Shown in pieces: positions 5,767 through 53,267 of a stretch of DNA of 64,000 nt. The stretch covers positions 4,224,001 to 4,288,000 of the forward strand of contig CATQHZ020000001.1 in assembly GCA_958296135.2 (NCBI GenBank), in the 5' to 3' direction. The stretch's first letter is position 1. Every line of letters begins with the position of its first letter. A program made the translations under genes and the position numbers. The DNA comes from an uncultured Poribacteria bacterium. GTDB lineage: Bacteria; Poribacteria; WGA-4E; WGA-3G. The notes under the pieces were generated by a model. The model was given only the letters and a program-made list of their open reading frames with translations, ran no database searches and was not told the DNA's origin.

Positions 5767-5960
5767 GGTCTGTCTTCTCCTTTTCGGTGTAAGGTATGCG
5801 AGGAAGCAAGCGGTGCTTGCGCCGCATACGCAATAGGTTTGAGTTGTCTCCCTAGGGCCAGATTTCCGTATCTCGTCCTACAGAGACGCTGCAAATCAAA
5901 TAGATTATATCTAATTTGCGGAAAAAAAGCCAGTTTTTTGCAAAAACTCCTCCTCTAACC

Positions 5961-6090
5961 CGTAGGGCGAGGGCCGTCACGGTCACGCCTACAGAAAATG
6001 TGCGTGTGTCGCCCCGCGTAAACACGCTACCTTACTTTAACTTTGTCATCTCTGCAGCCTCGCTGCAGAGATGTCCACTGCCCCTCGCCA
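5961..6090 (+). repeat. REP hairpin with internal cargo (one 45-bp unit)
   Basis: GTAGGGCGAGGGCC-[GT CACGGTCACG...GCGTAAA CACGCTACC...CTGCAGCCTCGCTGCAG...]-TGCCCCTCGCC; same element at 12717, 39631 and 44645. Confidence 0.8.
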
Positions 6091-6135
6091 GGCTGTCTGC
6101 GTCAAACGCACAATCGCGGGGGCCACGTCCCCGAA

Positions 6136-7599
6136 CTACAGCGTTGTGCGCGTCAACCCCAGCGGCCGCCGCCGAATCTCATGCCACGGCCCCGTAATCG
6201 CAAGCGTAATCCCCTGATTCTGGATGTTTATGAACAGCGTCGTCCCATCCGGTGAAAAGGTTGCGCCTGCTAATTCGGACGTATTCCCGGCGTTACGCGC
6301 GAATCGGTAGAGATGCCCGTCTGGCGTTACGCCTACCAAAAACTGCTCCCTCGGTCCGTCTTCACAGAGGATCAGGTCTCCCCACGGTGTCACCGTCAGG
6401 TTATCGGCGTTTTCGAGGAGATTACTGTTGTTCGGTTCAATGAAGAGTGCCAGCGTGCCGGGCTGTTTGTCTTCGTCGGTTGTGCCTTCGTAGGGGCTCG
6501 GCGTGTATCGCCAGATTTGCCCTTTTCGCTTGATACCGCCGTTCGTGCAGGCGATATAGAAGTCGGTGCCGCTGAACCATATCCCTTCACCGCGCGCGAA
6601 CTTTGCCGCGGCCTTTCCGTCAACGCCTTGTTTGCGAAGATCATCCTTCGGCGACTCCACGTTCTCAATATCCACCCATGCTACATCCAAAACTTCGCCT
6701 ACCGGGAGAGGTTTGTATGTCCAGGGGAAGAACTTTTGTGTGCCGCTTTTCCAATTGCGGGTATCCGCGCCTTTCACATCACGAATTTGCAATGCCTGCA
6801 GGCGGCCACCCTTAGCAAGTTCACCTTGTTGTTCAGGAATAAACCGATAGATGAGCCCATCGTTTCTATCCTCGGTCTGGTAGACAATGCCGGTTCGCGA
6901 GTCCACAGCGATAGCCTCATGGTTGAACCGTCCCATCGCCTTGAGCGGCACGGGCGGGGCAAGTCCCACCGTAGCGGAGACAGGCACCTCAAAGTTGTAA
7001 CCGTGGTCCCGTTCGTAAGTTTTCTCCGCCTTTTGGACGGTTTCCTCGCAGGTTACCCAGGTCTGCCACGGAGTCGGCCCGCCGGCACAATTACGGATAG
7101 TGCCAGCCAAACTCAGGAAATGTTTGTCCAGCGTCCCCGTGCGGGTGTCATAGACGAGCGTCGTCGTGCCCCCAAGCCCTGGTGTCTCCCCTGAGCCTGC
7201 CTCGTAGAATTTGCCGATTTCTGCCCGCTCAATCTTCTCGTTATTCCACCCAAAGGCACCGAGAGTCTTGTCGGTTGCGTTCAATTCGTGATTGCGGACG
7301 AGGAGTGTCTTTCCATTTGGGCCGGGGAAGGCGGCCATGCCATCGTGTTTGCCCGGCACCCACAGCCCATCGTCCATCATCTCCCCGGTTCGTGAGATAC
7401 CGATGGCGGTGAAGCCTTCCGGCAGGTCGAGGAGCCGATTTGCGCTCGGCATAAACTGATAGGGCAGCTCAGGTTTGAAGCAAGGGATGTTGTTGAGTAA
7501 GGCGCGGTTACATCCTAGAAAACCGAGGCTGACTGCGACAGATGCACTGGCGAGCGCGCCCGTGCGTAGAAACTGCCGACGCGATAATTTGCTCTTCAT
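6136..7599 (-). CDS. PhoX-family (DUF839) Tat-exported alkaline phosphatase
   Basis: SRRQFL Tat motif; HDGMAAF, LVRNHE, RNCAGGPTPW..TCEE, GRFNHEA, RGEG, ADNL, CEDG, ELAGATFSPDG. Confidence 0.88.
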   Translation of the reverse strand: MKSKLSRRQFLRTGALASASVAVSLGFLGCNRALLNNIPCFKPELPYQFMPSANRLLDLPEGFTAIGISRTGEMMDDGLWVPGKHDGMAAFPGPNGKTLLVRNHELNATDKTLGAFGWNNEKIERAEIGKFYEAGSGETPGLGGTTTLVYDTRTGTLDKHFLSLAGTIRNCAGGPTPWQTWVTCEETVQKAEKTYERDHGYNFEVPVSATVGLAPPVPLKAMGRFNHEAIAVDSRTGIVYQTEDRNDGLIYRFIPEQQGELAKGGRLQALQIRDVKGADTRNWKSGTQKFFPWTYKPLPVGEVLDVAWVDIENVESPKDDLRKQGVDGKAAAKFARGEGIWFSGTDFYIACTNGGIKRKGQIWRYTPSPYEGTTDEDKQPGTLALFIEPNNSNLLENADNLTVTPWGDLILCEDGPREQFLVGVTPDGHLYRFARNAGNTSELAGATFSPDGTTLFINIQNQGITLAITGPWHEIRRRPLGLTRTTL

Positions 7600-12609: not shown

Positions 12610-12940
12610 GCCCCGGTAGGCGCGCCCCCTGGTCTCGATGCGTGCATCATTTACCACGCACCCCGTAGCGCGAGGGCCTGTCCCTCGCGATGCGTGCATC
12701 ATTTACCACACGCCCCGTAGCACGAGGGCCGTCACGGTCACGCCTACAGAAAATGTGCGTGTGTCGCCCCGCGTAAACACGGTCACGTCTACAGAAAATG
12801 TGCGTGTGTCGCCCCGCGTAAACACGGTCACGTCTACAGAAAATGTGCGTGTGTCGCCCCGCGTAAACACGCTACCTTACTTACTTTAACTTTGTCATCT
12901 CTGCAGCCTCGCTGCAGAGATGTCCACTGTCCCTCGCGAG
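12610..12940 (+). repeat. REP cluster including cargo-bearing REP with three 45-bp tandem units
   Basis: CACGGTCACG(C/T)CTACAGAAAATGTGCGTGTGTCGCCCCGCGTAAA starts at 12733, 12778 and 12823. Confidence 0.85.
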
Positions 12941-12961
12941 GCTACATCCTGGAAGAAATCT

Positions 12962-15999: not shown

Positions 16000-17361
16000 A
16001 TGCCAAAACTGATTGTCAAAAATTTCATTCATATCCGCGAGGCGGAAATCGACATGGACAAAAAGCTCGTCGTTTTTATCGGTGAACAGGCGAGCGGCAA
16101 AAGCACCCTTGCGCGGCTGCTCTACTTTTTCCGCCACGTCACCTACGCCCTCCGCAAATGGGTCTGGATGGTGAATTGGGAAGGCGAGCAGCGGCTCAGT
16201 TCAGCGTTCTATCACCACCTCGCGCAGCAATTCCGCCTCTTTTTTGGCGAACTAACGCGCCTCGGGCCGTTTGAGATGACGTATCACTATACCGAGGAGA
16301 GTTCCGTCACCATCGCTTTAACGGACGATGGGCAACTCAACATCACGCTACCCGCGCCTATGGACGAGATGAACGAACTTTACGGGGAGTATCAAGAAGA
16401 ACTGCGCGACGCGAAGGCGAAGTCTCTCAAGGAGGGCGATGCCCGAGAAACTACGTTTACCCCCGGCGAACGGATGCTCATTGAAATCTTCCTCGGGGCA
16501 GGGATTAGCAGCATCTCCGAACGGCTCTTCGGCACGTATCTCAGCAGCCTCTATATCCCGGCAGACCGGCAGATTGTCTCAAACTATCCCGATGCCTTCA
16601 AACGTGTCTTCTACGGCGGCATCAAAAGGGATATCTTTGAACGCGACATAGAACGCAACCCCGCACCCGCCGCGCAGAGCTACTTACTGTCGCGGCTCCT
16701 GGAGAAAAACGAGGAGTTCTTGCAAACCTTTAACGAGCAAGACTACCATGCCCTCCTTGCCGAACGAACAAGCGATGAGGATGACGATGTTGATGCCGCA
16801 CCGGTAGAATTCCTCATGGAGAAGATGGCGCGCATCCTCAAAGGCACTTACGGACCGGCGGACGACAAAAAATCGATGTTCAATCAGCCTACCGGCGAAG
16901 GCTCGGTGCCGTTACAGGCAGCTTCAGCCGGTGAACAGAACGCGCTCCGCCTCCTCCAAGACATCTTCTTCACCGTGCTATATGATGAAGGCACATTTCG
17001 CGTCATCGAAGAACCGGAGGCAAGCCTCTATCCAACCGCGCAGAAGGAGCTGATCGAGATTATCGCGTTGATGCTGAACACGGCGAAATGCCAAGTGGTG
17101 CTGACAACGCATAGTCCGTATGTGTTGTCCGTGCTTCAAACCCTGCTGCGTGCGAAGCAAGCAATACAAAATCAGCCTACCGCAGCAGACCGGATAGCCG
17201 CACTTGCACCTGAACGCTGTTGGCTCTCTGCGGAAGATATTGCTGTCTATCAGTTGAAAGAGGGCGCGTGTCATTCCTTGATAGATGCCGAGAGCGAAGA
17301 GATTCTCCGCAATCCGCTAGCGGCGTTATTGACAGCATTTTCGCTTGACATTTCGGCGTGA
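16000..17361 (+). CDS. ABC-like AAA_15/AAA_21 family ATPase
   Basis: KLIVKNF, GEQASGKST Walker A, ASAGEQ signature, VIEEPEASLYP Walker B/D-loop, LTTHSPY. Confidence 0.85.
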   Translation: MPKLIVKNFIHIREAEIDMDKKLVVFIGEQASGKSTLARLLYFFRHVTYALRKWVWMVNWEGEQRLSSAFYHHLAQQFRLFFGELTRLGPFEMTYHYTEESSVTIALTDDGQLNITLPAPMDEMNELYGEYQEELRDAKAKSLKEGDARETTFTPGERMLIEIFLGAGISSISERLFGTYLSSLYIPADRQIVSNYPDAFKRVFYGGIKRDIFERDIERNPAPAAQSYLLSRLLEKNEEFLQTFNEQDYHALLAERTSDEDDDVDAAPVEFLMEKMARILKGTYGPADDKKSMFNQPTGEGSVPLQAASAGEQNALRLLQDIFFTVLYDEGTFRVIEEPEASLYPTAQKELIEIIALMLNTAKCQVVLTTHSPYVLSVLQTLLRAKQAIQNQPTAADRIAALAPERCWLSAEDIAVYQLKEGACHSLIDAESEEILRNPLAALLTAFSLDISA

Positions 17362-17510: not shown

Positions 17511-18140
17511 ATGAACAAAACCGTTTTCAATTTCATGACTCTCCTCTGCATCGGGGCACTCGTGTGCCTCATGGGTTGCGGAAGTAAGCGCACTTCGCCG
17601 CTTGCACAACAATCACCACCGCCGCCACTGCCCGATCTGCCCGACTGGGTAGATAGCCCACCGCAGGATGACGACGAATTTCTTTACGTTGTCGAATCCG
17701 GCGCATCCCGCGACCTGGGCCGCGCGCAACGAAAAGCGATCCAAAACGCGAGAGCCGCCCTCGCACTGAAAATCGAGGCAGCTGTCACCGTCCTCGTCAA
17801 AAGTTTTGAGGAAGAAGTGGGCGGCGACGCGGCGAGCGCGGAGGCCAATGGGCTCTTCGCCCAAATCTCGAAGACCGTGGCGGATCAGCGGCTCGTCGGC
17901 TCGAGCCCTGCCAAAGTCCATCGGCTTCAGAACGCAGATGGACTTAGCAACACCGTTTACGTCTTGATGGAACTGCCGACCGGCATGCTCGGGGCTCAGG
18001 CTGTTGACACTATCAGCCGGGATAGGGCGTTATACAACCGCTGGCGCGCTTCAGAGGGGTTCAAGGAACTTGAGCACGCTGTCAAGGAAAAACGTGCACA
18101 AGATGGCGAGGAACAACCAGAAACCGGGGCAACGCCGTAA
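17511..18140 (+). CDS. LPP20-like lipoprotein
   Basis: Lipobox LMGC; PDWV..P; A..KAIQNARAALA; VYVLM. Confidence 0.7.
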   Translation: MNKTVFNFMTLLCIGALVCLMGCGSKRTSPLAQQSPPPPLPDLPDWVDSPPQDDDEFLYVVESGASRDLGRAQRKAIQNARAALALKIEAAVTVLVKSFEEEVGGDAASAEANGLFAQISKTVADQRLVGSSPAKVHRLQNADGLSNTVYVLMELPTGMLGAQAVDTISRDRALYNRWRASEGFKELEHAVKEKRAQDGEEQPETGATP

Positions 18141-18192
18141 CTCCTGCTAGGCGCGGGCACCGACCCGCGCCTCTCCGGCCCCAACGATAGCA

Positions 18193-18963
18193 ATGGAGAA
18201 AATGCAACGCCTTTGCCTCCTTTTTATCCTCACGTTTCTGCATGTCGGATGTCAGCAGGCGAAAGTGAAAGCACCTTTTACTGCTACCGTGAAAAGGGCA
18301 AAAATCGCCTATCCGCAGTGGTTTTGGGCACCGCCACCCCGTCTTCCGTTTCCGACCGCGGTGGGTTACTCGGCTGTCTCACACTTCCATCCCGACAAGG
18401 CATTAGAAAATGCAACAGAAGACGGTATTGAGAGGCTAGCGAAATCTATCCATGTTCGCATCCGCGGCGAACGGAGCACTATCAACGGCAAACTGGTGCA
18501 ACAGTTTCAGGAAGAGACTGAGACCCGGGTCAAGGAAAACGTCCGGGAGGCACATGAAATCTTGGCAATCTATCAGGAAGAAGGATTGACGATGGTGCTG
18601 GTAGGAGCAAGCACCCAATCTCGACAACTATCCGCAAGCGTTACCGAGCCCAATGCCACTGTACCCGACTGGATAGGTGAACTTCCTCGGCATCGCGGCT
18701 ATTTCTATGCGCGCGGGCAAAGCGTCCTGAAAAATCGTCCGAAAACGGCGTGGGCGCAGGCAGAATATCAAGCGCGCATCGCGCTCGCCTTGACGGTAAC
18801 CGCCAGCGTCTCGCACCTCGAAAGATCCGCGCGGGGGCAAATTGACAAAGTCACTCGGACGTGCGTAGATTTAACGTTGAGGGGAATCCAGATCGTTGCG
18901 CGGTGGTATGATGCGGCGGAGCGTATCTGCTATGTCCTTGTCCGCGTCCCAATTAACGCATAG
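18193..18963 (+). CDS. Lipoprotein with two LPP20-like domains
   Basis: Lipobox HVGC; PQWF and PDWI..P..GYFYARG; AEYQARIALA; YVLV. Confidence 0.65.
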   Translation: MEKMQRLCLLFILTFLHVGCQQAKVKAPFTATVKRAKIAYPQWFWAPPPRLPFPTAVGYSAVSHFHPDKALENATEDGIERLAKSIHVRIRGERSTINGKLVQQFQEETETRVKENVREAHEILAIYQEEGLTMVLVGASTQSRQLSASVTEPNATVPDWIGELPRHRGYFYARGQSVLKNRPKTAWAQAEYQARIALALTVTASVSHLERSARGQIDKVTRTCVDLTLRGIQIVARWYDAAERICYVLVRVPINA

Positions 18964-18969
18964 CAAACC

Positions 18970-19230
18970 ACCCTTGTCGGCGCGCCCTCTGGTCTCAATG
19001 CTCTTCCGGTAGGAGAGACCTCTGGTCTCGATTTTTCCCTGTCGGCGTGCCCTTTGGTCTCGATTCTTGTAGGCGCGCCCTCCCGGGCCCGATACAACGC
19101 TGCGGGTAGGAGGGACCTCCCGGGCCCGATATCGCACGCATCGAGACCAGGAGGTCTCTCCTACGGGTGGTGTTCGTCTGCACCCGAAGTCCCCGATCAA
19201 AATCGGGAGAACTGGTTTCCCTACGGAGAC
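18970..19230. repeat. REP cluster
   Basis: Several GTAGGAGAGACCTCTGGTCTCGAT / GTAGGCGCGCCCTCCCGGGCCCGAT units, including inverted copies. Confidence 0.75.
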
Positions 19231-19330: not shown

Positions 19331-21310
19331 ATGAAAACCTTTCTCATCTCACTTTTTGTCGTTTTACTTTGCGGTGCCCTCATCTTCCTCGGCACCACAG
19401 CCCTGTTCTCCCAAACCCGCCGCGGCATGAAAATCAGCGTCCGCACGAACACCGGCGAAGACATCGCCCTCTACAACGCCTCCTACGCGCTCGTCATTGG
19501 AAACGGAAATTACCGAAACGGCTGGGACCCGCTCCCCGGTGCCCTACAAGACGTGAAAGAAGTCGCCGAGGCACTCAAAACACACGGCTTCAACGTCACA
19601 CTCAAAACAGATCTCACCGCAGATGAATTTATGGACGCGTTACTGACGTTCGGGTTAGAGCACGGCGAAGACGAAAACAACCGTCTCCTCTTTTACTACG
19701 CCGGACACGGCTACACCCTGCCGCTCGCCAACGACCAGGAGCGCGGCTACCTCGTGATGATCGACGCGCCAGACCCGGACAGCGACAAACGCGGCTTTGT
19801 GCGAGCGAGCGTCAACATGGAGACGATCGTCGGGGAATCCAAGGCGATTCTCGCACGGCACGTGCTATTTCTGTTTGATTCCTGCTTCTCCGGCACCATT
19901 CTCAACGCCCGCGACCGGGTGAGACCCGAGAGCATTTCAGATAACATTCGGTACCCCGTGCGGCAATTCATCACCGCCGGCCGCGCGAACGAACCCGTGC
20001 CGGACCGGAGCGTTTTCAAGACAGCGTTCCTGGACCTCATTGAAGGCCGCGCCACCGATCCGTTCCGTGATGGTTACATTACCGGTACGGAGTTAGGAGT
20101 GTATCTGGTGAATCAGGTGCCGATATACAACCCGGCACAACATCCACAACACGGCAAAATCCGAGATCCGAAGTTAGATAAAGGCGATTTTGTGTTTGTG
20201 CTACCGCGGCGAAACACTGCCGAACTGCCTACCCTCGCAACCTTGAGCGTGACGAGCACGCCGAGCGGCGCGACCGTCTACGTTGCCGGTACCGCTATCG
20301 GCAAAACGCCCTTACGCGCCTATGCAATTGACACGGGGGTGCGGCGCGAGAAGCAGGTAGACATCGGCTTAGAACTTGCCGGTTACAAAAGCCGTGTGAA
20401 AAGCGTTACATTGACAGGTGGACAAACCCTCCCCTGGGATGTCCCCTTGGAACCTATGATTGCGCCGACGATTATTGGACAAGATGGCGCGGAGATGGTG
20501 CTGATTCCCGCCGGCGACTTTCAGATGGGCAGCAACGACAGCGAGGCAGAAGACTATGAAAAACCGGTGCATACCGTCTACGTGGATGCGTTCTACATGG
20601 ATAAATACGAAGTGACGAATGCGCAGTTCAAGGCGTTTGTCGATGCCAACCCGCAGTGGCAGAAGGACAAAATCCCTGACAAATACCACGATGGAAACTA
20701 TTTGGGTCACTGGGATGATAGTACTCTCAAGAGTTTCTTGGGGGAAGGGAACCAGCCAGTGGTGTATGTGAGTTGGTATGCGGCGATGGCGTATGCACAG
20801 TGGGCCGGCAAACGGCTGCCGACAGAGGCGGAGTGGGAGAAAGCCGCCCGCGGCGGGTTAGTGGGCCAGAAATATCCCTGGGGCAATCGTCCGCCGGATG
20901 GCACACAGTGTAACTTCGCTGATATCCACCTAGCCAACTTGAATTTCGAGGGGCTAGATTGGGCAGATGAAAGTGTGGACGATGGTTCCGCGCTGACTGC
21001 CCCTATCGGCCGTTATCCGGTCAACGGCTACGGCCTACATGACATGGCTGGCAATGTGTGGGAGTGGTGTCTTGATGAATATGATGAGACTTTCTATAGG
21101 CGTTCGCCGCGTCGGAATCCGCTCGCGGGGGAGATGCCCCGAAGGGAAGTGATTACTAATTACAGAAACGTTACAACCTCCCGCGTGTTGCGGGGTGGCA
21201 GTTGGTACAATACCGCGCAGAACCTGCGCGTCGCCAATCGCCTCAGCAATACGCCCTCGTACACGTTCAACGGCATCGGTTTTCGTTGTGCGAGGGCTGT
21301 TACCCCTTAG
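19331..21310 (+). CDS. Exported caspase-like (peptidase C14)-PEGA-FGE/CLec protein; putative DGR target 1
   Basis: Hydrophobic N-terminus; YALVIGN, YYAGHG, FDSCFSG (His-Cys dyad); SVTSTPSGATVY PEGA; IPAGDFQMG, RLPTEAEWEKAARGG, DMAGNVWEW, RGGSW, GFRCA. Confidence 0.9.
   Translation: MKTFLISLFVVLLCGALIFLGTTALFSQTRRGMKISVRTNTGEDIALYNASYALVIGNGNYRNGWDPLPGALQDVKEVAEALKTHGFNVTLKTDLTADEFMDALLTFGLEHGEDENNRLLFYYAGHGYTLPLANDQERGYLVMIDAPDPDSDKRGFVRASVNMETIVGESKAILARHVLFLFDSCFSGTILNARDRVRPESISDNIRYPVRQFITAGRANEPVPDRSVFKTAFLDLIEGRATDPFRDGYITGTELGVYLVNQVPIYNPAQHPQHGKIRDPKLDKGDFVFVLPRRNTAELPTLATLSVTSTPSGATVYVAGTAIGKTPLRAYAIDTGVRREKQVDIGLELAGYKSRVKSVTLTGGQTLPWDVPLEPMIAPTIIGQDGAEMVLIPAGDFQMGSNDSEAEDYEKPVHTVYVDAFYMDKYEVTNAQFKAFVDANPQWQKDKIPDKYHDGNYLGHWDDSTLKSFLGEGNQPVVYVSWYAAMAYAQWAGKRLPTEAEWEKAARGGLVGQKYPWGNRPPDGTQCNFADIHLANLNFEGLDWADESVDDGSALTAPIGRYPVNGYGLHDMAGNVWEWCLDEYDETFYRRSPRRNPLAGEMPRREVITNYRNVTTSRVLRGGSWYNTAQNLRVANRLSNTPSYTFNGIGFRCARAVTP
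21182..21310 (+). other. DGR-type variable region VR1
   Basis: 129 nt, gap-free alignment to 25253-25381 with 27 mismatches; 25 are at codon positions 1/2 and 20 have A in one copy. Confidence 0.8.
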
Positions 21311-21330
21311 TCCTTTACCTCTTTACCCCT

Positions 21331-21353
21331 TCTGATCTGCCTTGCAGATCAGA
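21331..21353 (+). promoter_or_regulatory. Perfect hairpin downstream of VR1 (candidate DGR target-recognition stem-loop)
   Basis: TCTGATCTGC-CTT-GCAGATCAGA, 20 nt after the stop; no U-tract follows. Confidence 0.65.
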
Positions 21354-21466
21354 CCGGTATGGAGGGGGTACTTAATAAGACCTAACGGCCGGCCCGGCAC
21401 CTATTTTTCTGCGATAACCCCGCTTACTATGCGGTTTCGTCCTGCGAAGTTTTTTTAAGGATTGCT

Positions 21467-23095
21467 ATGAAAACCACGCGCCTCTCTCTATTTCTCATAT
21501 TCCTCATCTCCCTCACAACAACCGCGCACGCCGCCAAACCGGATTGGGTCAGCAATTTCGGCGTGTCCAAAAGGCATCCAGCACACAGTTATCTCGTCGG
21601 GTTCGGGAGCGCGCGGGGGAACGGTGCCGAATCACGCCAGATCGCCGCAGATAACGCACGCGCAGAGGTGTCTCGCCACATTGTCACAAATATCAAAAGC
21701 GTGATTTCCACGGGCGAGGCAGAGACAAGGCACGGTGTCTCCGAACATTTCAGCGCAACCACTCAAAGTTCCACTGCACTGCAACTGATGGGACTTTCGC
21801 TTGAGCACTACGCTGACCAGCATGCCACGTATGTCCTGGCATGGATTTCCCGCGCCGAGCTCAAGCGGCTCTATACGCAACGTGCCGTGGAGTTCCGCGA
21901 GAAAATCCGGCGGATCATAGCGGATGCCCACGCCGCAGAAAACGACGAAAAGCCCTCCCTTGCCGTGGAGAAATACCTGAGCACCGCGCCGCTCTACGAA
22001 GCGTTGAAAGAGGCGGAGACCATCTTGACGGTGGCAAAACTCTCCAGTAGGCGCGATTTGCAACTTGCAAGCGATGCCTTCGCCGAATTAGAAAAAGCCA
22101 CAAAGGGCGATTCCGGCGTGGGAGATACCCCCCTGATGTCGCACACCGAGGTGATGAACCGCGTCGAGAAACTTGTCTCAACCGCCGCAATCACTTCCGT
22201 TGATGACATCGCGCGGGCTGTCGTCTTTCAACTCTCAAAACAGATGAGTCACCTCACAGGCAAAGTGTTGCTGGTAGCCCCTACCTATCAGGATACGCAG
22301 ATGAATAGCCGTTTTTCGCGTGAATTCCGCGCCGCGCTGGAGACACAATTCGGACAAATCGGCAAGTGGCATACCGTGACTGAAAAGCATCGTTCCCGCG
22401 GAAACGTTCGTCCCCGTTCCGCGCAATTGATGCGCGATTGGACCAGAAGTGCGGGCGCGACGTTGCTGCTCTCCGGCACCTATTGGGAAAGCAGCGATGC
22501 AATCACCCTCCGGACGACGCTGCGCGATGTGAATACCGGTGCAGTCAAGGCAGGCACCGCAGTCACCTTCTCGCGTCTTACGGATATGGACTTCAAACCG
22601 CAAAATTGGCAGTCTGCCCTCATATCACAAAAAGCGTTCGCCGAAGGCGAATTCGTCAGTGGCGCGCTGCGGGTGGAAGTCTGGACAAACAGGCCGAGTG
22701 AGCATCCGCTTTATACCGAAGGCGAGACGATGACAGTCTCTGTCCGCGTCAATCAAGAGGCTTACATCCGCCTCCTCTATATCCTTGCCGATGGCCGGTA
22801 CACGCTCCTCTACGATAACTACTACATTGACGGGTCGAAGGTTAATCGCGTCGTTGAGATTCCGGAAGAGTTTGAGTGTGCAGAGCCGTTTGGCGCAGAA
22901 TTGCTTATCGTCGCGGCGCGCACCGATAAGTTCCCTGCCATCGATACCTACGAAAGCGATGGGTATTCATTCTTGAAGGCAGAAGATGCCGAACAAGCAG
23001 CTCGCGCTTTTCGCGGCATGAAAAAGAAGCAGCAACGTCCCGAGGCCCAACAGAGTGAAGCGCGCCTTGTGATTACAACCCTCAGCAAAAAGTAG
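21467..23095 (+). CDS. Exported protein: LPP20-like N-terminus, FlgO/CsgG-like middle, C-terminal DUF4384-like domain
   Basis: Signal peptide ending AHA; KPDWV..YLVGFG..ARAEVS; LLSGTYW..ITLRTTLRDVNTG; VEVWTNR..YTEGE..VRVNQEAYIRL..EPFGAE. Confidence 0.65.
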   Translation: MKTTRLSLFLIFLISLTTTAHAAKPDWVSNFGVSKRHPAHSYLVGFGSARGNGAESRQIAADNARAEVSRHIVTNIKSVISTGEAETRHGVSEHFSATTQSSTALQLMGLSLEHYADQHATYVLAWISRAELKRLYTQRAVEFREKIRRIIADAHAAENDEKPSLAVEKYLSTAPLYEALKEAETILTVAKLSSRRDLQLASDAFAELEKATKGDSGVGDTPLMSHTEVMNRVEKLVSTAAITSVDDIARAVVFQLSKQMSHLTGKVLLVAPTYQDTQMNSRFSREFRAALETQFGQIGKWHTVTEKHRSRGNVRPRSAQLMRDWTRSAGATLLLSGTYWESSDAITLRTTLRDVNTGAVKAGTAVTFSRLTDMDFKPQNWQSALISQKAFAEGEFVSGALRVEVWTNRPSEHPLYTEGETMTVSVRVNQEAYIRLLYILADGRYTLLYDNYYIDGSKVNRVVEIPEEFECAEPFGAELLIVAARTDKFPAIDTYESDGYSFLKAEDAEQAARAFRGMKKKQQRPEAQQSEARLVITTLSKK

Positions 23096-23197
23096 AAAAC
23101 GCCGAACAACCACAGCGCGAGGGCCTGTCTCTCACGATCGTCCCTCAAGACAAAAACTGAAGGAAAAAACACAACGTTCATCCGGTATCGAAAAACC

Positions 23198-23226
23198 TTG
23201 CTTTTTAACACGCAACATGCTAGAAT
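23198..23226 (+). promoter_or_regulatory. Putative promoter, similar to the one at 25470-25498
   Basis: TTGCTT-TTTAACACGCAACATGC-TAGAAT versus TTGCTT-TTTAACGCACAACATGT-TAAACT. Confidence 0.55.
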
Positions 23227-23236
23227 ACACGTCATC

Positions 23237-25381
23237 ATGAAGCCCTTCTTCATCTCTCTCATTATCATAGCCCTCTGTAGTGCCGCGATTTTCATCGGCG
23301 CGCCAGACCTGTTCCCCCAAACCCGCCGCGGCATGAAAATCACCGTCCGCACAAACACGGGCAAAGAAATCGAACTCTACAACGCCTCCTACGCGCTCGT
23401 CGTCGGAAACGGCAATTACACAAACGGCTGGGACCCGCTCCCCGGCGCAACTCGCGACGTGCAGGAAGTTGCAGCGGCTCTCAAAACACACGGCTTCAAC
23501 GTCACACTCAAAACCGACTTGACAAAGAACAGGTTTGAGGATGCGTTTGAGACGTTCGTCCAGAACGGAAAGAACAAGGATGCCCGACTCCTTTTCTACT
23601 ACGCGGGACACGGTTACACCGAGGAACTCGCCGATGGCGAAAACCTTGGATACCTCGTCATGGTAGACGCACCTTTGCCAAAAAGCGGCGGCATCGACGG
23701 TAGCAAAAGTGTGGACATGGAATCGCTGGTGACACAATCACGGCGGATGCAGTCACGGCATGTGCTGTTTGTGTTTGACAGTTGTTTCTCTGGCACGATT
23801 CTCAATACGCGCAGCCAGATTCTGCCGCCTTATGTCTCAAACAACGTCAAATATCCCGTGCGACAATTTATCACCGCCGGCCGCGCGGATGAAACCGTGC
23901 CGGATCACAGCGTTTTTAAGCAGGCGTTTCTGAACCTCCTTGAGGGCCGCGCGCCTGAACCTATTAAGGACGGTTACGTTACCGGCGAGGAGTTAGGGCT
24001 CTATCTAAAAACCGAAGTCCCGAAATATAACCGCGGGCAAAACCCGCAATATGGCAAAATCAACAACCCGAAACTGAACCAGGGCGATTTTGTGTTTGTG
24101 CTGCCCCAGGAGGCTCCACCACCCCCCGGCGAAGTCTTATCCACAACAGCAACGTTAAACGTAACAAGCACGCCCAGCGGCGCGACGCTCTATCTTGATG
24201 GAATCGTCATCGGGAAAACGCCGCTGCGCGGCCATCAGATTGACACGGGGGTGCGACGCGTCAAAAAGGTTCAGGGCCGCTTGGAATACGATGGTTACAA
24301 AAGTCGAACAACAACCTTGACACTGAAGGGTGGGCAAAGTGTGCCTTGGAGGGTTCGGTTAGAAAAGTTTGCCACCATCGCAACCTTGCAGGTAACCAGC
24401 ACACCGAGCGGGGCGAGTGTCTATATTGACGGGGCCGCCGTTGGGAACACACCGTTACGCGGCCATGAGGTTGACACGGGAACAAAGCGAGAAAAGCGGG
24501 TAGAACTTGGCATAGAACTTTCCGGTTACAAAAGCCAAGTGAGAGGTGTAACGCTGAAGGGAGGACAAGCGGTGCCGTGGGATGTCCAATTGGAAAAACA
24601 GGCAACTCCTCTGCAAGGCGCGCACACATCAACGATTATTGGGAAAGATGGCGCGGAGATGGTGCTGATTCCCGCCGGCGACTTCCAAATGGGCAGCAAC
24701 GACAGCGAGGCAGACGACGATGAAAAACCGGTGCATACCGTCTATGTGGACGCGTTCTACATGGATAAATACGAGGTGACGCATGCGCAGTTCAAGGCGT
24801 TTGTCGATGCCAACCCACAGTGGCGGAAAGACCGGCTCCCTGACAAATACCATGATGGAGACTACCTGTCTGAGACAGGGAACAGTTGGGAAGGCAACTA
24901 TCCGGTGGTGTCTGTGAGTTGGTATGCGGCGATGGCGTATGCGCAGTGGGCCGGCAAACGGCTGCCGACAGAGGCGGAGTGGGAGAAAGCGGCGCGCGGT
25001 GGCTTGGTAGGCAAGAAATACCCGTGGGGGAATACAAAGGCAAACTACAGCATGGGTGGTCGCTACACCAAGCCGGTTGGCCGTTATACACCGAATGGTT
25101 ACGGTTTATACGACATGGCTGGTAACGTGCAGGAGTGGTGTCTGGATGCGTATGATAGCGATTTCTATAGGCGTTCGCCGCGTCGGAATCCGCTCGCGGG
25201 GGAGATGACCCGAAGGGAAGTGATTACTAATTACAGAAACGTTACAACCTCCCGCGTGTGGCGGGGTGGCGGTTGGGCCAATCCCGCGCTGTACCTGCGC
25301 GTCGCCGATCGCGACGACGGTGCGCCGCCGGACGCGAACGGCTACGTCGGTTTTCGTTGTGCGAGGGCTGTTACACCTTAG
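23237..25381 (+). CDS. Exported caspase-like (C14)-2xPEGA-FGE/CLec protein; putative DGR target 2
   Basis: Paralog of 19331-21310; YYAGHG and FDSCFSG intact; two PEGA domains; start set at MKPFFISL by alignment with the paralog. Confidence 0.9.
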   Translation: MKPFFISLIIIALCSAAIFIGAPDLFPQTRRGMKITVRTNTGKEIELYNASYALVVGNGNYTNGWDPLPGATRDVQEVAAALKTHGFNVTLKTDLTKNRFEDAFETFVQNGKNKDARLLFYYAGHGYTEELADGENLGYLVMVDAPLPKSGGIDGSKSVDMESLVTQSRRMQSRHVLFVFDSCFSGTILNTRSQILPPYVSNNVKYPVRQFITAGRADETVPDHSVFKQAFLNLLEGRAPEPIKDGYVTGEELGLYLKTEVPKYNRGQNPQYGKINNPKLNQGDFVFVLPQEAPPPPGEVLSTTATLNVTSTPSGATLYLDGIVIGKTPLRGHQIDTGVRRVKKVQGRLEYDGYKSRTTTLTLKGGQSVPWRVRLEKFATIATLQVTSTPSGASVYIDGAAVGNTPLRGHEVDTGTKREKRVELGIELSGYKSQVRGVTLKGGQAVPWDVQLEKQATPLQGAHTSTIIGKDGAEMVLIPAGDFQMGSNDSEADDDEKPVHTVYVDAFYMDKYEVTHAQFKAFVDANPQWRKDRLPDKYHDGDYLSETGNSWEGNYPVVSVSWYAAMAYAQWAGKRLPTEAEWEKAARGGLVGKKYPWGNTKANYSMGGRYTKPVGRYTPNGYGLYDMAGNVQEWCLDAYDSDFYRRSPRRNPLAGEMTRREVITNYRNVTTSRVWRGGGWANPALYLRVADRDDGAPPDANGYVGFRCARAVTP
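25253..25381 (+). other. DGR-type variable region VR2
   Basis: See VR1; about 35 nt of 3' non-coding sequence is also conserved, but the hairpin is degenerate. Confidence 0.78.
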
Positions 25382-25532
25382 TCCCTTACTCCTTTACCCC
25401 TTCTGATTTGCTGTGCAGGTAGTGGCATGACATACAATGGCATTTCCAAAATCGGAGATGAAAATGCCCTTGCTTTTTAACGCACAACATGTTAAACTTT
25501 CCTCATCACAACACAATAACGGAGTCAACCTT

Positions 25533-27797
25533 ATGTCCCCAAAAACCCTATCCCTCATCGTCACCTTCACCTTAATCGCGATGGTATCGCCAGGCCCAAC
25601 TCCTGCCGCGCCAGACGCGGACTATTTCAACCACATCACCCTCTTTTCAGATGGCAGAATCACGCGCTTCACGGAAATGCCCATCCGTGTCTACATCTCA
25701 CCCATCCTCAAGGAGAGCCCCTATCTCGCCGAACTCCGCTACGCGATGAACGAATGGGAAACCGCCGCCCCCGAAACCATCCGTTTTGAAGAAACAGCGG
25801 TGCCAGAACAGGCTGACATCCGCGTCAGCTGGGGACACAGCAGCCTCATGGACATTCAGGATACGCGGCTCGGAAGCGCGGAATTGACGCGCTTGAACGC
25901 CGCGCAAGGGTTTAAGGTGGAGGTTATCCTGATGCTGGAGGGAAATGGCACTATTGGGGAACTGTCGCAGGAAGAAATGCGCACAGTCTGTCTGCACGAA
26001 TTCGGACACGCTATCGGGCTCTGGGGACACAGCCCCCACCCCGCCGATATCAACTACCCCACGGCGACAGCGCAGCATCCTACCGGGCGCGACATCGCAA
26101 CCTTGCTGAAACTTTACGCCACGCCGCTCGATACGCCTCAGCACGACATCGCAATAGAGCTGTTGAAAGCGGAGGTTGCGCGGAAACCGAGAAATCTGCG
26201 GGAACACTATCTGCTAGGCGCAGTCTATTTTGATAAAGGCGATATGGCAGCGGCGATTGATTGTTTCCAGACGTGTCGCAAACTTGATGCCAACTTTCAA
26301 CCGGCGATAGAGAGACTCCTGCAGGCATACCAAGAGACAGGACAGGCACCGGCGGCGATTACGTTGCTTGAAAAACGCATCTCGCAAAAGCCGTCGCCGG
26401 CCGGCTATAACACCCTCGGCATTTTCTATTACGGGCAAAAAGAGAACGAGCGCGCAATGCGTGCGTTTGAGAACGCGTTAGAGATGGCACCGCATCATAA
26501 AGCCGCAAGGCGGAACCTGCATCAACTCCTCCGAGAAAAAGCGTTCAGTGCACTGGCTGACAAAAATTTCGCGGCGGCGACAGCGGCGTTTGAGAAGGCG
26601 CTGCGGATTAAGCCGCTTGATACCACCACGTATCACCTGATGGGAAACGGCTACGCGCAAGTCGGCGAGTTTGAGAAGGCAATTGCGTATTATGAGAAGG
26701 CACGAGAAATGAACCCTATTGACGCAGTCATGCGCCGAGATCTGGCGCAATGCTACAACAACTACGGTGTCGCCTTGAGAAACCGAAAGCAATGGGACGC
26801 GGCAATTCGTGCTTATCGGAATGCCTTGAACGTCATGCCAACGTTCGGGCTCGCGCGCTCAAACCTCATCGATGCGTTATGGCAAAAGGGGCGTGCCTAT
26901 CGGGAAGCGGGGGAATTGGACACGGCGATTAACGCGTATCAAGAGGTGTTGAAGCTCCAGCCGAACGATATGCAGGGACGCAGCCTACTTGGCGAACTCT
27001 ATCTCAAAAAAGGGGACTATACAGCGGCACTAGCAGCATTTCGCCAGGTTTACACCGCGATGCCGAACGCCGAATGGGTGCAACACAACCTCATCGCCGC
27101 CTATCATCACGCCGCCCGAAGTTGCATCCAGCAGGAACGTTACGATGTGGCCATTCAACACCTTACGGCGGCACTCCGCATCGTTCCAACAGACCTGAAC
27201 CTCCGTTTAAGTCTCGTGCATGCGTATCAGGGCGCAGGCGATGACAAACGTGCCGACGCAGAACTCTCGCGCGTTCTCGCGCAAGAACCGCATAATCCTC
27301 AGGCGAAAGCGGCACTGATGAACCTGCACATCCGACGCGGCAACAAACTGATGCAGCAACGGAACTACGCCGCCGCCCTCAACGAATTTGAGGCGATTCT
27401 CGAAGACGACAGAGACATTCATATTGACAATACCATCGCCTATCTCTATCTGATGCAGGGAGAGTTTATGAAAGCATTGACAGGGTTTGAGAAGGTTTTT
27501 CAGCGCGACCGGCTCAATATGCCCGCGTTTCGGAATCTGCTATCGCTTGAATCGCAACTCGTGCGGCGGTCTGACAAATCGAAGGCAGACACCTTGGTCC
27601 GCGTGCGGTGTGCAGTCGCAATCTGTTTGATGCACCGGAAGCAGCTGGACGCAGCGATGAAAAAATATGCATTGGCGTTGAAAGGGAAACGCGAGCCTTT
27701 GCACGCGCTTCTGATTGAAACGGGTAGGGAATTAGCTCAGCACGATGCGCGCAATCGGGAAGAGATTTTGCAGTGGGTAGAAACCCTGAAGCCCTGA
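25533..27797 (+). CDS. Exported matrixin-like zinc metalloprotease with long TPR array
   Basis: Signal peptide; ADIRVSW, HEFGHAIGLWGHS metzincin motif; many TPRs (YNNYGVAL, LGELYL, AIAYYEKA). Confidence 0.85.
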   Translation: MSPKTLSLIVTFTLIAMVSPGPTPAAPDADYFNHITLFSDGRITRFTEMPIRVYISPILKESPYLAELRYAMNEWETAAPETIRFEETAVPEQADIRVSWGHSSLMDIQDTRLGSAELTRLNAAQGFKVEVILMLEGNGTIGELSQEEMRTVCLHEFGHAIGLWGHSPHPADINYPTATAQHPTGRDIATLLKLYATPLDTPQHDIAIELLKAEVARKPRNLREHYLLGAVYFDKGDMAAAIDCFQTCRKLDANFQPAIERLLQAYQETGQAPAAITLLEKRISQKPSPAGYNTLGIFYYGQKENERAMRAFENALEMAPHHKAARRNLHQLLREKAFSALADKNFAAATAAFEKALRIKPLDTTTYHLMGNGYAQVGEFEKAIAYYEKAREMNPIDAVMRRDLAQCYNNYGVALRNRKQWDAAIRAYRNALNVMPTFGLARSNLIDALWQKGRAYREAGELDTAINAYQEVLKLQPNDMQGRSLLGELYLKKGDYTAALAAFRQVYTAMPNAEWVQHNLIAAYHHAARSCIQQERYDVAIQHLTAALRIVPTDLNLRLSLVHAYQGAGDDKRADAELSRVLAQEPHNPQAKAALMNLHIRRGNKLMQQRNYAAALNEFEAILEDDRDIHIDNTIAYLYLMQGEFMKALTGFEKVFQRDRLNMPAFRNLLSLESQLVRRSDKSKADTLVRVRCAVAICLMHRKQLDAAMKKYALALKGKREPLHALLIETGRELAQHDARNREEILQWVETLKP

Positions 27798-27814
27798 TAC
27801 CGTAGTGCGCGGGC

Positions 27815-28175
27815 CCGGCGAGCGCGAATCGCCGAGGGTTACCCTCACCATGCAGCCACCCTCGCTAAACCGCCCCTGATACCGTAGGGCGAGGGCCCGG
27901 CGATCACGAATCGCCGAGGGTTACCCTCGCCATGCAGCCCACCCCTTTAACCGTAGGGCGAGGGCCCGGCGATCACGAATCGCCGAGGGTTACCCTCGCG
28001 AAACCGCCGCCCTCTACCGTAGCGCGAGGGCCTGTCCCTCGCGATCTCCCGACCGTAGGGCGAGGGCAGTTCCGCCTACATGGAAGCCAGCCTGCATTGC
28101 ACCGCATAAGCAGGATGACCTCCGCCCGCGCCATGCAGCGATCGCGGGGGACAGGCCCCCGCGCTACCGGCCCGG
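27815..28175. repeat. REP/REPIN-like cluster left of the RM gene
   Basis: GTAG(G/C)GCGAGGG..CCCTCGC units; 27993-28167 is directly repeated at 31340-31513. Confidence 0.8.
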
Positions 28176-34324: not shown

Positions 34325-34996
34325 ATGAATAAAGAAGACCTTATTCTCCAAAAACTTGAGGAGATGGCGGCGCAGCAACAGGAGATGGCGGCGCAGCAAC
34401 AGGAGATGGTGGCGCAGCAACAGGCTCGGGATGCTGCGGAGGCTGCACGGATAGCAAACTTAGAGTCTGAGGTGAAGGAAACCCGCGCGGAGGTAACGGA
34501 AACCCGCGGCGAGGTAAAGGAAACCCAGGCGGAGGTAAAGGAAACTCGCGGCGAGGTAAAGGAAACTCGCGAGGAACTCCACGAAACCCGCAACGTAGTC
34601 ACGGAGACGCAGGCGGAGGTAAAGGAAACCCGCGACGTAGTCACGGAGACGCAGTACGAGGTGAAGACTGTCCAAAAAGACCTGGGAACTACCCACGATG
34701 CGTTGAACCAAACCCGCGGCGAGGTGAAGCGAAACCAGTCTAGCCTCCAGGCAGTCTTGGAAGACACCGGAAACATGAAGGTTAACGACGCGGAACTCAA
34801 GGGCGAGCTGCATGCACTAGATACCAAACTGACAGGCATGGTAGAGGCCTTGGAGCAACGAGTCAGTACCTTTATCGCTAACCTGCGCGAGCGGAAACTT
34901 GACACCGACGAACGCTGGAAAATCGGTGGACTTGTCGCCACCGCCTGCATCGCTGCCGCCTCTATGGTTCTCTCTCTTATCACCTTTTTCAAGTGA
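34325..34996 (+). CDS. Heptad-repeat coiled-coil protein with C-terminal membrane anchor
   Basis: (EMAAQQQ)x3 and (EVKETRG)n from 21-nt repeats; hydrophobic C-terminus; RBS GAGGTG. Confidence 0.75.
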   Translation: MNKEDLILQKLEEMAAQQQEMAAQQQEMVAQQQARDAAEAARIANLESEVKETRAEVTETRGEVKETQAEVKETRGEVKETREELHETRNVVTETQAEVKETRDVVTETQYEVKTVQKDLGTTHDALNQTRGEVKRNQSSLQAVLEDTGNMKVNDAELKGELHALDTKLTGMVEALEQRVSTFIANLRERKLDTDERWKIGGLVATACIAAASMVLSLITFFK

Positions 34997-39630: not shown

Positions 39631-39852
39631 CGTAGCGCGAGGGCCGTTACGGTCACGTCTACAGTAAACGTGCGTGTGTCGCCCCGCGTAAACACGGTCA
39701 CGTCTACAGTAAACGTGCGTGTGTCGCCTCGCGAAAGCACGGTCACGTCTACAGAAAATGTGCGTGTGTCGCCCCGCGTAAACACGCTACCTTACTTACT
39801 TTAACTTTGTCATCTCTGCAGCCTCGCTGCAGAGATGTCCACTGTCCCTCGC
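39631..39852 (+). repeat. Cargo-bearing REP with three 45-bp units
   Basis: Same element as at 5961, 12717 and 44645. Confidence 0.85.
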
Positions 39853-39869
39853 AATCCTGGGGTGACAGG

Positions 39870-44649: not shown

Positions 44650-44820
44650 GGCGAGGGCCGTCACAGTCACGCCTACAGAAAACGTGCGTGTGTCGCCCCG
44701 CGAAAGGATGCTACCTTTAACCTTGTCTTCCCTGCAGCCTCGCTGCAGAGATGGCCACTGTCCCTCGCCGTGTGCTGTTGCGCTTGAGGGTTTGCGAGGG
44801 ACAGGCCCTCGCACTACGGT
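44645..44820 (+). repeat. Cargo-bearing REP (one diverged unit) plus inverted REP
   Basis: GTAGGGCGAGGGCCGTCACAGTCACGCCTACAG...CTGCAGCCTCGCTGCAG...TGTCCCTCGCC. Confidence 0.8.
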
Positions 44821-53233: not shown

Positions 53234-53267
53234 CGTTCATATCCTCCTCTTTTCAGGGCATCGTGAG

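What the first reader, a model, noticed from the sequence alone, without database searches (positions are those of the whole stretch)
19331..25381. Two exported caspase-like proteases with DGR-diversified C-terminal ligand-binding regions
Seen: the last 129 nt of both genes (21182-21310 and 25253-25381) align without gaps and have 27 mismatches. Of these, 25 are at codon positions 1/2 and 20 have A in one copy. Paired codons such as TAC/GCC, CTC/GAC, AGC/GAC, AAT/GGT, TTC/AAC, AAC/GGC and GGC/TAC keep the third base and all collapse to AAC/AAT. The 91 nt just upstream, which include many adenines, differ at only one site. Known: this is the footprint of DGR adenine-specific mutagenic retrohoming. 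FGE-type C-type-lectin folds between RGGSW and GFR are established DGR targets (e.g. Treponema TvpA), and cyanobacterial targets can carry caspase-like N-termini. Here the His-Cys dyad is intact (YYAGHG/FDSCF), the proteins have export signals, and the catalytic FGE cysteines are absent. Inference: a diversifying extracytoplasmic receptor-protease system, driven in trans by a DGR elsewhere. Predicted template approximately CGGGGTGGCAGTTGGAACAATACCGCGCAGAACCTGCGCGTCGCCAATCGCAACAACAATACGCCAACGAACACGAACAACAACATCGGTTTTCGTTGTGCG.
Basis: partly seen in the sequence, partly recalled or inferred. Interest (0 to 1): 0.93.

Follow-up and report, generated by a model that had tools for sequence, protein, structure and literature searches.

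The report
Orphaned DGR variable regions in caspase-lectin genes
Two neighbouring caspase-lectin genes end in binding-site regions that were clearly rewritten by a mutagenic retroelement (DGR), but this genome no longer carries the retroelement, so the two variants now look frozen; this is a known kind of thing in a new bacterial lineage.

Summary
The last 129 nt of both genes differ at 27 sites: 25 at codon positions 1/2, 20 with A in one copy. The 91 nt upstream differ once.

The DGR footprint is real. Same-family relatives, whose records are titled Candidatus Poribacteria, carry canonical cassettes (FGE target, Avd, RT, TR). Their nine TRs have adenine at 22-24 of the 26 sites in the 122-nt TR-homologous span where the two genes differ. 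Both genes keep a VR-type 3' boundary. Gene A keeps a strong downstream hairpin; gene B has lost it.

"Driven in trans by a DGR elsewhere" is not supported. The genome has no RT, Avd or TR. It has 4 contigs and 94.7% completeness, the same score as closed relatives. A same-genus relative keeps only an Avd beside a target, and further decayed cassettes occur in the family.

Non-adenine sites are species-specific, so homing continued after the two species split.

Best reading: recently orphaned, now frozen DGR targets. The caspase plus FGE-lectin target class and leftover targets after cassette loss are both published. Export is plausible but untested.

The parts
19331..21310 (+). Gene A, 659 aa. 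N-terminal hydrophobic segment (aa 1-26), Peptidase_C14 (aa 52-196), PEGA (aa 303-375), FGE-sulfatase/CLec (aa 387-655).
   Evidence: ORF; Pfam (FGE 230 bits, C14 65.5, PEGA 43.1); YYAGHG at aa 122 and DSCFSG at aa 183; MALT1 paracaspase alignment across YYAGHGY.
21176..21297 (+). VR_A, the 122-nt span homologous to relatives' template repeats. It retains A at 18 of 33 template-adenine sites.
21278..21303 (+). VR-type 3' boundary (IMH-like). It contains GCGAGGGC where all nine relatives' TRs have GCGAAGAC.
   Evidence: Genome scan: 9 VR-type ends and 0 TR-type ends in G000.
21331..21353 (+). Perfect 10-bp hairpin with a 3-nt loop, 21 nt after gene A's stop. It is homologous in position to hairpins after relatives' VRs.
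   Evidence: sequence. DNA fold -13.9 kcal/mol, z -7.0, 0 of 200 shuffles fold as well. for the homologous hairpins.
21467..23095 (+). Intervening gene, 542 aa, with LPP20-like and DUF4384 regions and a canonical-looking signal peptide. Syntenic in G002 at 89.7% nt identity.
23237..25381 (+). Gene B, 714 aa. N-terminal hydrophobic segment, Peptidase_C14 (aa 52-194), 2 PEGA domains, FGE-sulfatase/CLec (aa 473-710).
25247..25368 (+). VR_B. It retains A at 10 of 33 template-adenine sites and differs from VR_A at 22 of 33 adenine sites but only 1 of 79 strict non-adenine sites.
25349..25374 (+). VR-type 3' boundary of gene B (contains GCGAGGGC).
25402..25424 (+). Degraded remnant of the downstream hairpin.
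   Evidence: sequence.: -0.9 kcal/mol, z +1.5, 197 of 200 shuffles fold at least as well.
17511..18963 (+). Two LPP20-like lipoprotein genes upstream (17511-18140 and 18193-18963). The first is syntenic in G002.
   Evidence: The lipobox-like N-termini were read (rule recalled, not predicted by a tool).

Best explanation
Genes A and B are genuine remote target genes of a diversity-generating retroelement. In each, about 120 nt encode the ligand-binding face of a non-catalytic FGE-type C-type-lectin domain. That stretch was repeatedly overwritten by adenine-mutagenised cDNA copied from one lineage-specific template repeat, which produced two different binding sites on otherwise near-identical 3' ends. 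The machinery (Avd, RT, TR) has since been lost from this genome, as it has decayed in a same-genus relative and in other family members. The two variable regions are therefore now orphaned and frozen.

Shown: the adenine-restricted footprint, the homologous TRs and cassettes in relatives, the VR-type boundary, gene A's hairpin, the absence of RT/Avd/TR here, and the species-specific non-adenine backbone.

Inferred: that loss was recent and that diversification has stopped. It is also inferred that the proteins are membrane-anchored or exported caspase-type proteases whose variable lectin domain selects the ligand that positions or triggers the protease.
For: 1. Footprint. Of 26 A/B mismatches in the 122-nt span, 22 lie at sites where at least 2 of 3 relatives' TRs have A; 11 such adenine sites are unchanged. 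4 mismatches fall among the other 89 sites, and 3 of those are at sites where 1 of the 3 TRs has A (Fisher p=2e-12). One of the two third-position mismatches (21256) also sits on a TR adenine.

2. Nine TRs lying just downstream of RT genes in Poribacteria-titled records have A at 22-24 of the 26 variable sites. Coding copies in the same loci have 9-14.

3. The relatives' cassettes are canonical. In G004: a dockerin-FGE target, Avd (Pfam bAvd 71.8 bits; NCBIfam DGR Avd 111.5 bits against a cut-off of 80), an RT (RVT_1 82 bits) and a TR.

4. All VR copies end in GCGAGGGC where TRs have GCGAAGAC. Gene A is followed by a hairpin with z -7.0.

5. Over 17 VR-like copies in G000 and G002, mean column entropy is 1.53 bits at adenine sites and 0.31 at non-adenine sites.

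6. Absence. RVT_1 scores at best 16.1 bits in G000 against a cut-off of 29.6, and that hit lies inside an unrelated 458-aa ORF. tblastn with relatives' RT and Avd gives nothing better than E=0.48. There is no bAvd. There are 0 TR-type ends against 9 VR-type ends. TR queries with their flanks hit only the known coding copies.

8. Decay elsewhere. G002 has target, VR, hairpin and an intact Avd (118 bits), then only REP-like repeats. L223 has an Avd plus an RT fragment covering residues 9-80. G007 has a truncated Avd between two VR-like hits, and G024 has a second Avd with an in-frame stop.

9. Timing. Strict non-adenine mismatches are 1-4 of 79 among VR_A, VR_B, h3 and h6 within G000, across loci 2.8 Mb apart. 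They are 2-4 among the closest G002 copies, and at least 7 between the species.
Against: The cognate TR was never seen, so the adenine map is borrowed from relatives whose TR backbones differ from G000's at 13-23 of 96 sites. Relatives are kin, not independent samples.

The very low non-adenine divergence between VR_A and VR_B (1 of 79), together with gene A's intact hairpin and both intact boundaries, is also what a still-active system would show.

The assembly is not proven closed (4 contigs). Only contigs, not raw reads, could be laid, so rare A-site variants would be invisible.

The near-identity of the 91 nt upstream, with 22 unmutated adenines, is not explained by homing and needs an added gene-conversion event.

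Two separate losses (G000 and G002) after continued activity is somewhat unparsimonious.
Confidence: 0.72

Rival explanations
1. The DGR is still active and acts in trans from a replicon or region missing from the assembly (plasmid, phage or collapsed repeat). On this view genes A and B are live, diversifying targets.
For: VR_A and VR_B differ at only 1 of 79 strict non-adenine sites. Boundaries are intact in both genes and gene A's hairpin is perfect. The assembly has 4 contigs and 94.7% completeness. Trans diversification of remote targets is documented elsewhere (PMC10907252 and PMC7517822, passages read).
Against: None of the 4 contigs holds an RT, Avd or TR. In relatives the cassette is chromosomal, next to cohesin/dockerin-FGE targets. 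G000's counterpart cluster ends in REP-like repeats instead. Closed relatives have the same completeness score. An exact contig at single-copy depth (119.8, against 113.2 for the neighbouring contig) spans VR_B with 0 differences in two runs of the source-like sample. Gene B's hairpin is lost. No viral contig encoded a relative of the RT with the patterns used.
Confidence: 0.13
2. The footprint is ancient. The cassette was lost before the G000/G002 split, and the VRs have only drifted since.
For: None of the three same-genus genomes has an RT. G002's cassette is decayed.
Against: Non-adenine backbones are species-specific and homogeneous within each genome across distant loci: 1-4 of 79 within G000, 2-4 among the closest G002 copies, and at least 7 between the species. 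Drift after an ancestral loss would not produce that. Gene conversion alone would also erase the adenine-site differences. G002's Avd ORF is still intact and above the equivalog cut-off.
Confidence: 0.1
3. No DGR was involved. The pattern comes from diversifying selection on binding residues, with gene conversion homogenising the rest of the paralogues.
For: The A/B genes are mosaics of high- and low-identity tracts, which shows that recombination between paralogues does occur.
Against: Conversion tracts cannot skip single nucleotides. The variable sites coincide with adenines of real TRs in relatives, including one third-position site. The TR-versus-VR end distinction and the downstream hairpin are DGR-specific features.
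Confidence: 0.03

Closest known systems
Leftover DGR target genes in Treponema denticola isolates lacking RT and TR (Nimkulrat et al. 2016, PMC4891356; passages read)
   Same: The target genes have VRs that differ from other strains' TRs mostly at adenines, in genomes with no RT or TR. The authors interpret them as leftovers of cassette loss, including partial losses.
   Different: The lineage differs (relatives here are titled Candidatus Poribacteria). The targets carry caspase-PEGA or cohesin-dockerin N-terminal parts. The comparison here is across genera rather than strains, so the cognate TR itself is not available.
[quoted passage not shown] 2020, PMC7517822; passages read); metacaspase-FGE-sulfatase architecture in 33 sequences (Asplund-Samuelsson et al. 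2012, PMC3501461; passages read)
   Same: A caspase-type peptidase is fused to a C-terminal FGE-type lectin whose 3' end is the VR. The targets are remote, lying far from the cassette.
   Different: A PEGA spacer (1-2 copies) and a single N-terminal hydrophobic segment are present here. That paper predicts most cyanobacterial variable proteins to be cytosolic. No cassette exists in this genome.
TvpA of Treponema denticola (PDB 2y3c) and the CLec1 / FGE-sulfatase target class, 19% (71 of 372) of DGRs in Wu et al. 2018 (PMC5758913; passages read)
   Same: The fold family is FGE-type C-type lectin without formylglycine-generating cysteines, with the VR at the C-terminus. 2y3c is hit at E=1.3e-11. 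A tandem multi-FGE target, as in the G002 orthologues, is also reported there.
   Different: By sequence this domain is much closer to true FGEs (E=4e-44) than to TvpA. The protein is multi-domain, with a protease.
Bordetella phage BPP-1 DGR
   Same: A short fixed sequence difference at the 3' end distinguishes VR from TR. A stem-loop lies shortly downstream of the VR.
   Different: The sequences are unrelated. The function of the boundary and hairpin is untested here. Gene B and the cohesin-dockerin targets lack the hairpin.

Membership tests
DGR variable region (target of mutagenic retrohoming) | Differences confined to positions that are adenine in the template repeat | tested here: met
   Tested against heterologous TRs of relatives. 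22 of 26 mismatches lie at majority-adenine sites. Nine TRs have A at 22-24 of the 26 sites.
DGR variable region (target of mutagenic retrohoming) | Cognate TR in the same genome | tested here: not met
   All 13 related copies in G000 are VR-type; the 9 closest were placed in coding frames. TR queries with flanks hit only those copies. There are 0 TR-type ends.
DGR variable region (target of mutagenic retrohoming) | DGR reverse transcriptase in the genome | tested here: not met
   RVT_1 scores at best 16.1 bits against a cut-off of 29.6. tblastn and HMM searches with relatives' RT give nothing better than E=0.43.
DGR variable region (target of mutagenic retrohoming) | Avd accessory gene | tested here: not met
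   PF22296 gives 0 matches in G000. tblastn gives E of 0.48 or worse. It is present in G002, G004 and G009.
DGR variable region (target of mutagenic retrohoming) | VR at the 3' end of the ORF, in a C-type-lectin fold | tested here: met
   The FGE-sulfatase domain runs to aa 655 of 659 in gene A and 710 of 714 in gene B. TvpA and FGE structures are hit.
DGR variable region (target of mutagenic retrohoming) | IMH-like boundary that differs between VR and TR | tested here: met
   GCGAGGGC in VRs against GCGAAGAC in 9 of 9 relatives' TRs. Its role in homing is not testable here.
DGR variable region (target of mutagenic retrohoming) | Stem-loop downstream of the VR | tested here: inconclusive
   Gene A: -13.9 kcal/mol, z -7.0. 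Gene B: lost, z +1.5.
DGR variable region (target of mutagenic retrohoming) | Ongoing hypervariation in a population | tested here: inconclusive
   Only contigs could be laid. VR_B is covered by one exact contig at single-copy depth. VR_A is not covered by any listed exact piece.
Formylglycine-generating enzyme (catalytic) | Catalytic cysteine pair after the RGGS motif | tested here: not met
   In the alignment to 6muj and 2q17, the Cys-bearing stretch is a 3-residue gap plus non-Cys residues in gene A.
Peptidase C14 (caspase / orthocaspase) | Domain match over the curated cut-off, and His-Cys dyad motifs | tested here: met
   PF00656 scores 65.5 and 68.1 bits against a cut-off of 21.4. YYAGHG aligns to the MALT1 YYAGHGY motif. 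D[SC]CFSG is conserved in 5 of 5 G000/G002 proteins. Proteolytic activity is not testable here.
NCBIfam caspase, EACC1-associated type (NF047832) | Score over the curated cut-off | tested here: not met
   52.1 and 57.1 bits against a cut-off of 140.
Exported / extracytoplasmic protein | Cleavable signal peptide or signal anchor with the C-terminus outside | tested here: inconclusive
   A single N-terminal hydrophobic segment is conserved in 5 of 5 proteins, with no other such segment apart from one marginal 19-mer window in each of G002 A1 and A2. It is followed by basic residues (QTRRGMK), which is atypical for a Sec signal (rule recalled). No signal-peptide predictor was available.

The most novel reading that the evidence does not exclude
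In this sponge-associated lineage a conserved chromosomal DGR (RTs 79-83% identical across genera) acts as a hit-and-run repertoire builder. It diversifies a dozen or more dispersed FGE-lectin domains per genome, including membrane-anchored or exported caspase proteases and cohesin-dockerin scaffold proteins. The cassette is then repeatedly lost, leaving each species with a fixed, species-specific panel of lectin receptors. Alternatively, the cassette persists at low frequency in the population and is supplied in trans.
Probability: 0.15. Interest if true: 0.6.

Novelty: new member of a known kind. Interest (0 to 1): 0.38.

Why it matters
The case shows that a DGR footprint can be recognised and validated from two paralogous variable regions alone, even when the genome has lost the retroelement. 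RT-centred DGR surveys therefore miss such frozen targets.

It also documents an undescribed DGR family. Two literature searches for Poribacteria with DGR or related terms found no paper on it. The family has many remote targets and recurrent cassette decay, in a lineage known from sponge metagenomes.

For the biology of the two genes, the binding specificities of these two caspase-lectin proteins are products of past hypermutation. They are probably fixed now, so they can be studied as two defined variants.

Tried and rejected
- Laying reads. Only Logan contigs were available. They break at the paralogous repeats, so they cannot show rare variants. No listed exact piece covers 21120-21274. 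The result is therefore neither evidence for nor against ongoing diversification. The one exact contig across VR_B is mentioned only as weak context.
- Sponge-metagenome runs X1 and X2 hold pieces with roughly 5-18% other letters (table 8). These come from relatives, not this strain, and were not usable for strain-level VR comparison.
- G002 locus L092 matched only through FGE domains and is not the orthologue. The true orthologous locus is L109.
- The metagenome scan with the RT alignment returned only RTs of 62% identity or less in the 80 loci kept out of 374 relatives. No close cassette was found there.
- In the viral-contig scan, 93 stretches matched a pattern but none was confirmed. The scan is limited by its patterns.
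- The weak RVT_1 hit at G000:C1:1896350-1896487 (16.1 bits) lies inside a 458-aa ORF that looks like a glycosyltransferase (that family name is recalled from motifs, not scanned). It was rejected as a chance match.
- The 1-kb stretch downstream of the last cohesin-dockerin-FGE gene (L031, about 5200-6229) was searched for avd, RT and TR remnants. Only REP-like repeats were found.
- Structure prediction and complex prediction were not run. Sequence matches to solved FGEs and to TvpA already fix the fold.
It is a constructed sequence, so I used real TRs from relatives instead.
- Supplementary tables of the DGR surveys (PMC5758913, PMC7517822) were not available. They may already list Poribacteria DGRs or caspase-PEGA-FGE targets.

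Full report
**Observation**

The window lies at G000:C1:4224001-4288000 of a 5.19-Mb assembly in 4 contigs.

Gene A (19331-21310, 659 aa) and gene B (23237-25381, 714 aa from the ATG that matches gene A's start) both carry Peptidase_C14, PEGA (one and two copies) and FGE-sulfatase domains. Their 3' ends align without gaps.

- 27 of 129 positions differ.
- 16, 9 and 2 of these are at codon positions 1, 2 and 3.
- 20 have A in one copy.
- Only 1 of the 91 upstream positions differs, although that stretch holds 22 adenines.
- P for 25 or more of 27 at positions 1/2 is 0.0018.

In other parts of the same domains the A/B mismatches are mostly third-position (11 of 19, and 11 of 23), so the pattern is local and is not ordinary paralogue divergence.

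**Search for the machinery in this genome**

A sensitive DNA search of the whole genome with gene A's 3' end found 13 related copies. The nine closest are 3' ends or internal domain ends of FGE-domain ORFs. None of the 13 is adenine-rich or has a TR-type end.

- No RVT_1 match reaches the Pfam cut-off. The best is 16.1 bits against 29.6, and that hit sits inside an unrelated 458-aa ORF.
- tblastn and HMM searches with relatives' RT and Avd gave nothing better than E=0.43.
- The bAvd family has no match.
- A motif scan found 0 TR-type ends and 9 VR-type ends.
- The 94.7% completeness is the same as that of single-contig relatives (94-96%).
- The runs that hold 97% of the locus words have depth of about 100-128.

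**Relatives supply the missing template**

Of 41 genomes searched (G000 plus 40 relatives), 16 have VR-like DNA. Three same-family genomes (G004, G009, G024) have an RT of about 360 aa directly flanked by such hits.

G004's locus is a canonical cassette:
- a dockerin-FGE target;
- an Avd (NCBIfam DGR Avd 111.5 bits, cut-off 80);
- an RT (RVT_1 82 bits);
- a non-coding, AAC-rich copy of the VR.

In the 122-nt homologous span, 22 of the 26 A/B mismatches lie where at least two of the three TRs have adenine. 11 such adenine sites are unchanged. Only 4 mismatches fall among the other 89 sites, and 3 of those are at sites where one TR has A (Fisher p=2e-12). One of the two third-position mismatches (21256) also falls on a TR adenine. 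This argues for adenine mutagenesis rather than codon-position selection.

A scan of the species-representative genome collection with the RT alignment found further cassettes in records titled Candidatus Poribacteria. All nine TRs with the TR-type end have A at 22-24 of the 26 variable sites, against 9-14 in coding copies from the same loci.

None of these is G000's own template. Their non-variable positions differ from the A/B consensus at 13-23 of 96 sites.

**Cis elements**

Every VR-type copy ends in GCGAGGGC where the TRs have GCGAAGAC. This is the kind of fixed difference that marks the recipient in the Bordetella phage paradigm (recalled, not read here).

- Gene A: a perfect 10-bp hairpin lies 21 nt after the stop (-13.9 kcal/mol, z -7.0).
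- Gene B: the homologous position no longer folds (z +1.5).
- G002's relic target keeps a hairpin with a different stem sequence (z -5.2).
- Homologous hairpins follow VRs in G004 and G009.

**Decay of the cassette**

The same-genus genome G002 has an FGE target with VR and hairpin, then an intact Avd ORF (82 bits Pfam, 118 bits NCBIfam). After that come only REP-like repeats where RT and TR should be.

G000's counterpart of that gene cluster is four cohesin-dockerin-FGE genes at C1:1414230-1426095. It ends in about 1 kb of the same kind of repeats, with no remnant of the cassette.

Other decayed cassettes in the family:
- an Avd plus an RT fragment covering residues 9-80 (L223);
- a truncated Avd between two VR-like hits in G007, which lacks a DGR-type RT;
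- a second Avd with an in-frame stop in G024.

**Timing**

At the 79 positions where no relative's TR has adenine:
- VR_A and VR_B differ once.
- VR_A and the VR at 1.417 Mb (h6) differ once.
- Pairs among VR_A, VR_B, h3 and h6 in G000 differ at 1-4 sites.
- The closest G002 copies differ at 2-4 sites.
- No G000/G002 pair differs at fewer than 7.

At the 33 adenine sites the same pairs differ at 14-26 positions. Homogeneity restricted to non-adenine sites, across loci 2.8 Mb apart and specific to each species, is what repeated homing from one species-specific TR produces. Gene conversion alone would erase the adenine-site differences too. Homing therefore continued after the two species split, and loss in G000 is comparatively recent.

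The 99% identity of the 91 nt upstream, with unmutated adenines, lies outside the relatives' TR span. It needs an extra explanation, most simply a recent conversion tract between A and B.

**Population test**

Only contigs could be laid. They break at paralogous repeats. One exact contig at single-copy depth spans VR_B in two runs of one sample. No listed exact piece spans VR_A. This cannot show or exclude rare variants.

**The proteins**

The C14 domain aligns to the MALT1 paracaspase across YYAGHGY. The D[SC]CFSG motif is conserved in all five G000/G002 proteins.

The FGE domain hits solved FGEs (E=4e-44) and TvpA (E=1.3e-11). It lacks the Cys-bearing stretch, which is replaced by variable residues. 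It is therefore a binding module, not an enzyme.

A single N-terminal hydrophobic segment is conserved. PEGA domains, LPP20-like lipoprotein neighbours and a signal-peptide-bearing DUF4384 neighbour point to the cell envelope. However, the basic residues right after the hydrophobic segment are atypical for a Sec signal (recalled rule). Topology is therefore open.

G002's orthologues carry two or three tandem FGE domains, each with a VR-like end.

**Comparison with what is known**

- FGE-type CLec VRs are the largest DGR target class, and a tandem three-FGE target is reported (PMC5758913, passages).
- Orthocaspase-type N-termini and remote targets are described in cyanobacteria (PMC7517822, passages).
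- The metacaspase-FGE-sulfatase architecture was counted in 33 sequences (PMC3501461, passages).
- Leftover targets in genomes that lost RT and TR are described for Treponema denticola (PMC4891356, passages).
- Two earlier notes of this scan describe similar orphaned VRs in other genomes (not tested here).
- Two searches for Poribacteria with DGR or related terms found no paper on this DGR family. Supplements of the large surveys could not be seen.

**Verdict**

The claim of a DGR acting in trans elsewhere in this genome is not supported. The best reading is a pair of recently orphaned, now frozen DGR targets. That makes this a new member of a known kind, of moderate interest.

Noticed in passing
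window 16000-17361 (+): A 453-aa ATPase matches the PADLOC AriA model (PARIS defence system) over its full length (114.5 bits, model positions 5-372 of 373), and Pfam AAA_15/AAA_21. A partner nuclease gene was not looked for.
   Followed up: no
window 5961-6094, 12716-12943, 39631-39858, 44645-44774; also 1799-2150, 19107-19147, 27792-28025, 52426-53452: Several families of REP/MITE-like interspersed repeats occur in the window. Similar REP-like repeats fill the places where cassette genes are missing in G000 and G002.
   Followed up: partly
L109 (G002:C1:3996001-4014000): The G002 orthologues of genes A and B are 948, 986 and 1280 aa, with two or three tandem FGE domains. Each domain ends in a VR-like segment, but only the last is followed by a stop. 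G000's single-FGE genes may be deletion derivatives, or G002's may be expansions.
   Followed up: partly
L199 (a Poribacteria-titled chromosome), 2681-4286: This cassette has an intact Avd and a full-length RT (79% identity). However, the copy at the TR position has only 22 adenines and no TR-type end, unlike the nine other cassettes. This is unexplained.
   Followed up: no
L190-L201 (genome collection): RTs of this DGR family are 79-83% identical across at least four genera, and the closest metagenome RTs are 62% or less. This is either unusually strong conservation or horizontal spread within the lineage. It was not tested with a tree.
   Followed up: no
window 34448-34738: A run of 21-nt tandem repeats lies inside a coding-looking region, giving a 7-residue protein repeat (families D3/D6).
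   Followed up: no
window 50931-53060: There are three copies of a unit of about 800 nt, 86-99% identical over 300-nt reference stretches (families D1/D2).
   Followed up: no
window 25437-27797 (+): The gene downstream of gene B encodes a 786-aa protein with a matrixin-like (Peptidase_M10, 33.4 bits) N-terminal part and many TPR repeats. It is syntenic in G002.
   Followed up: no
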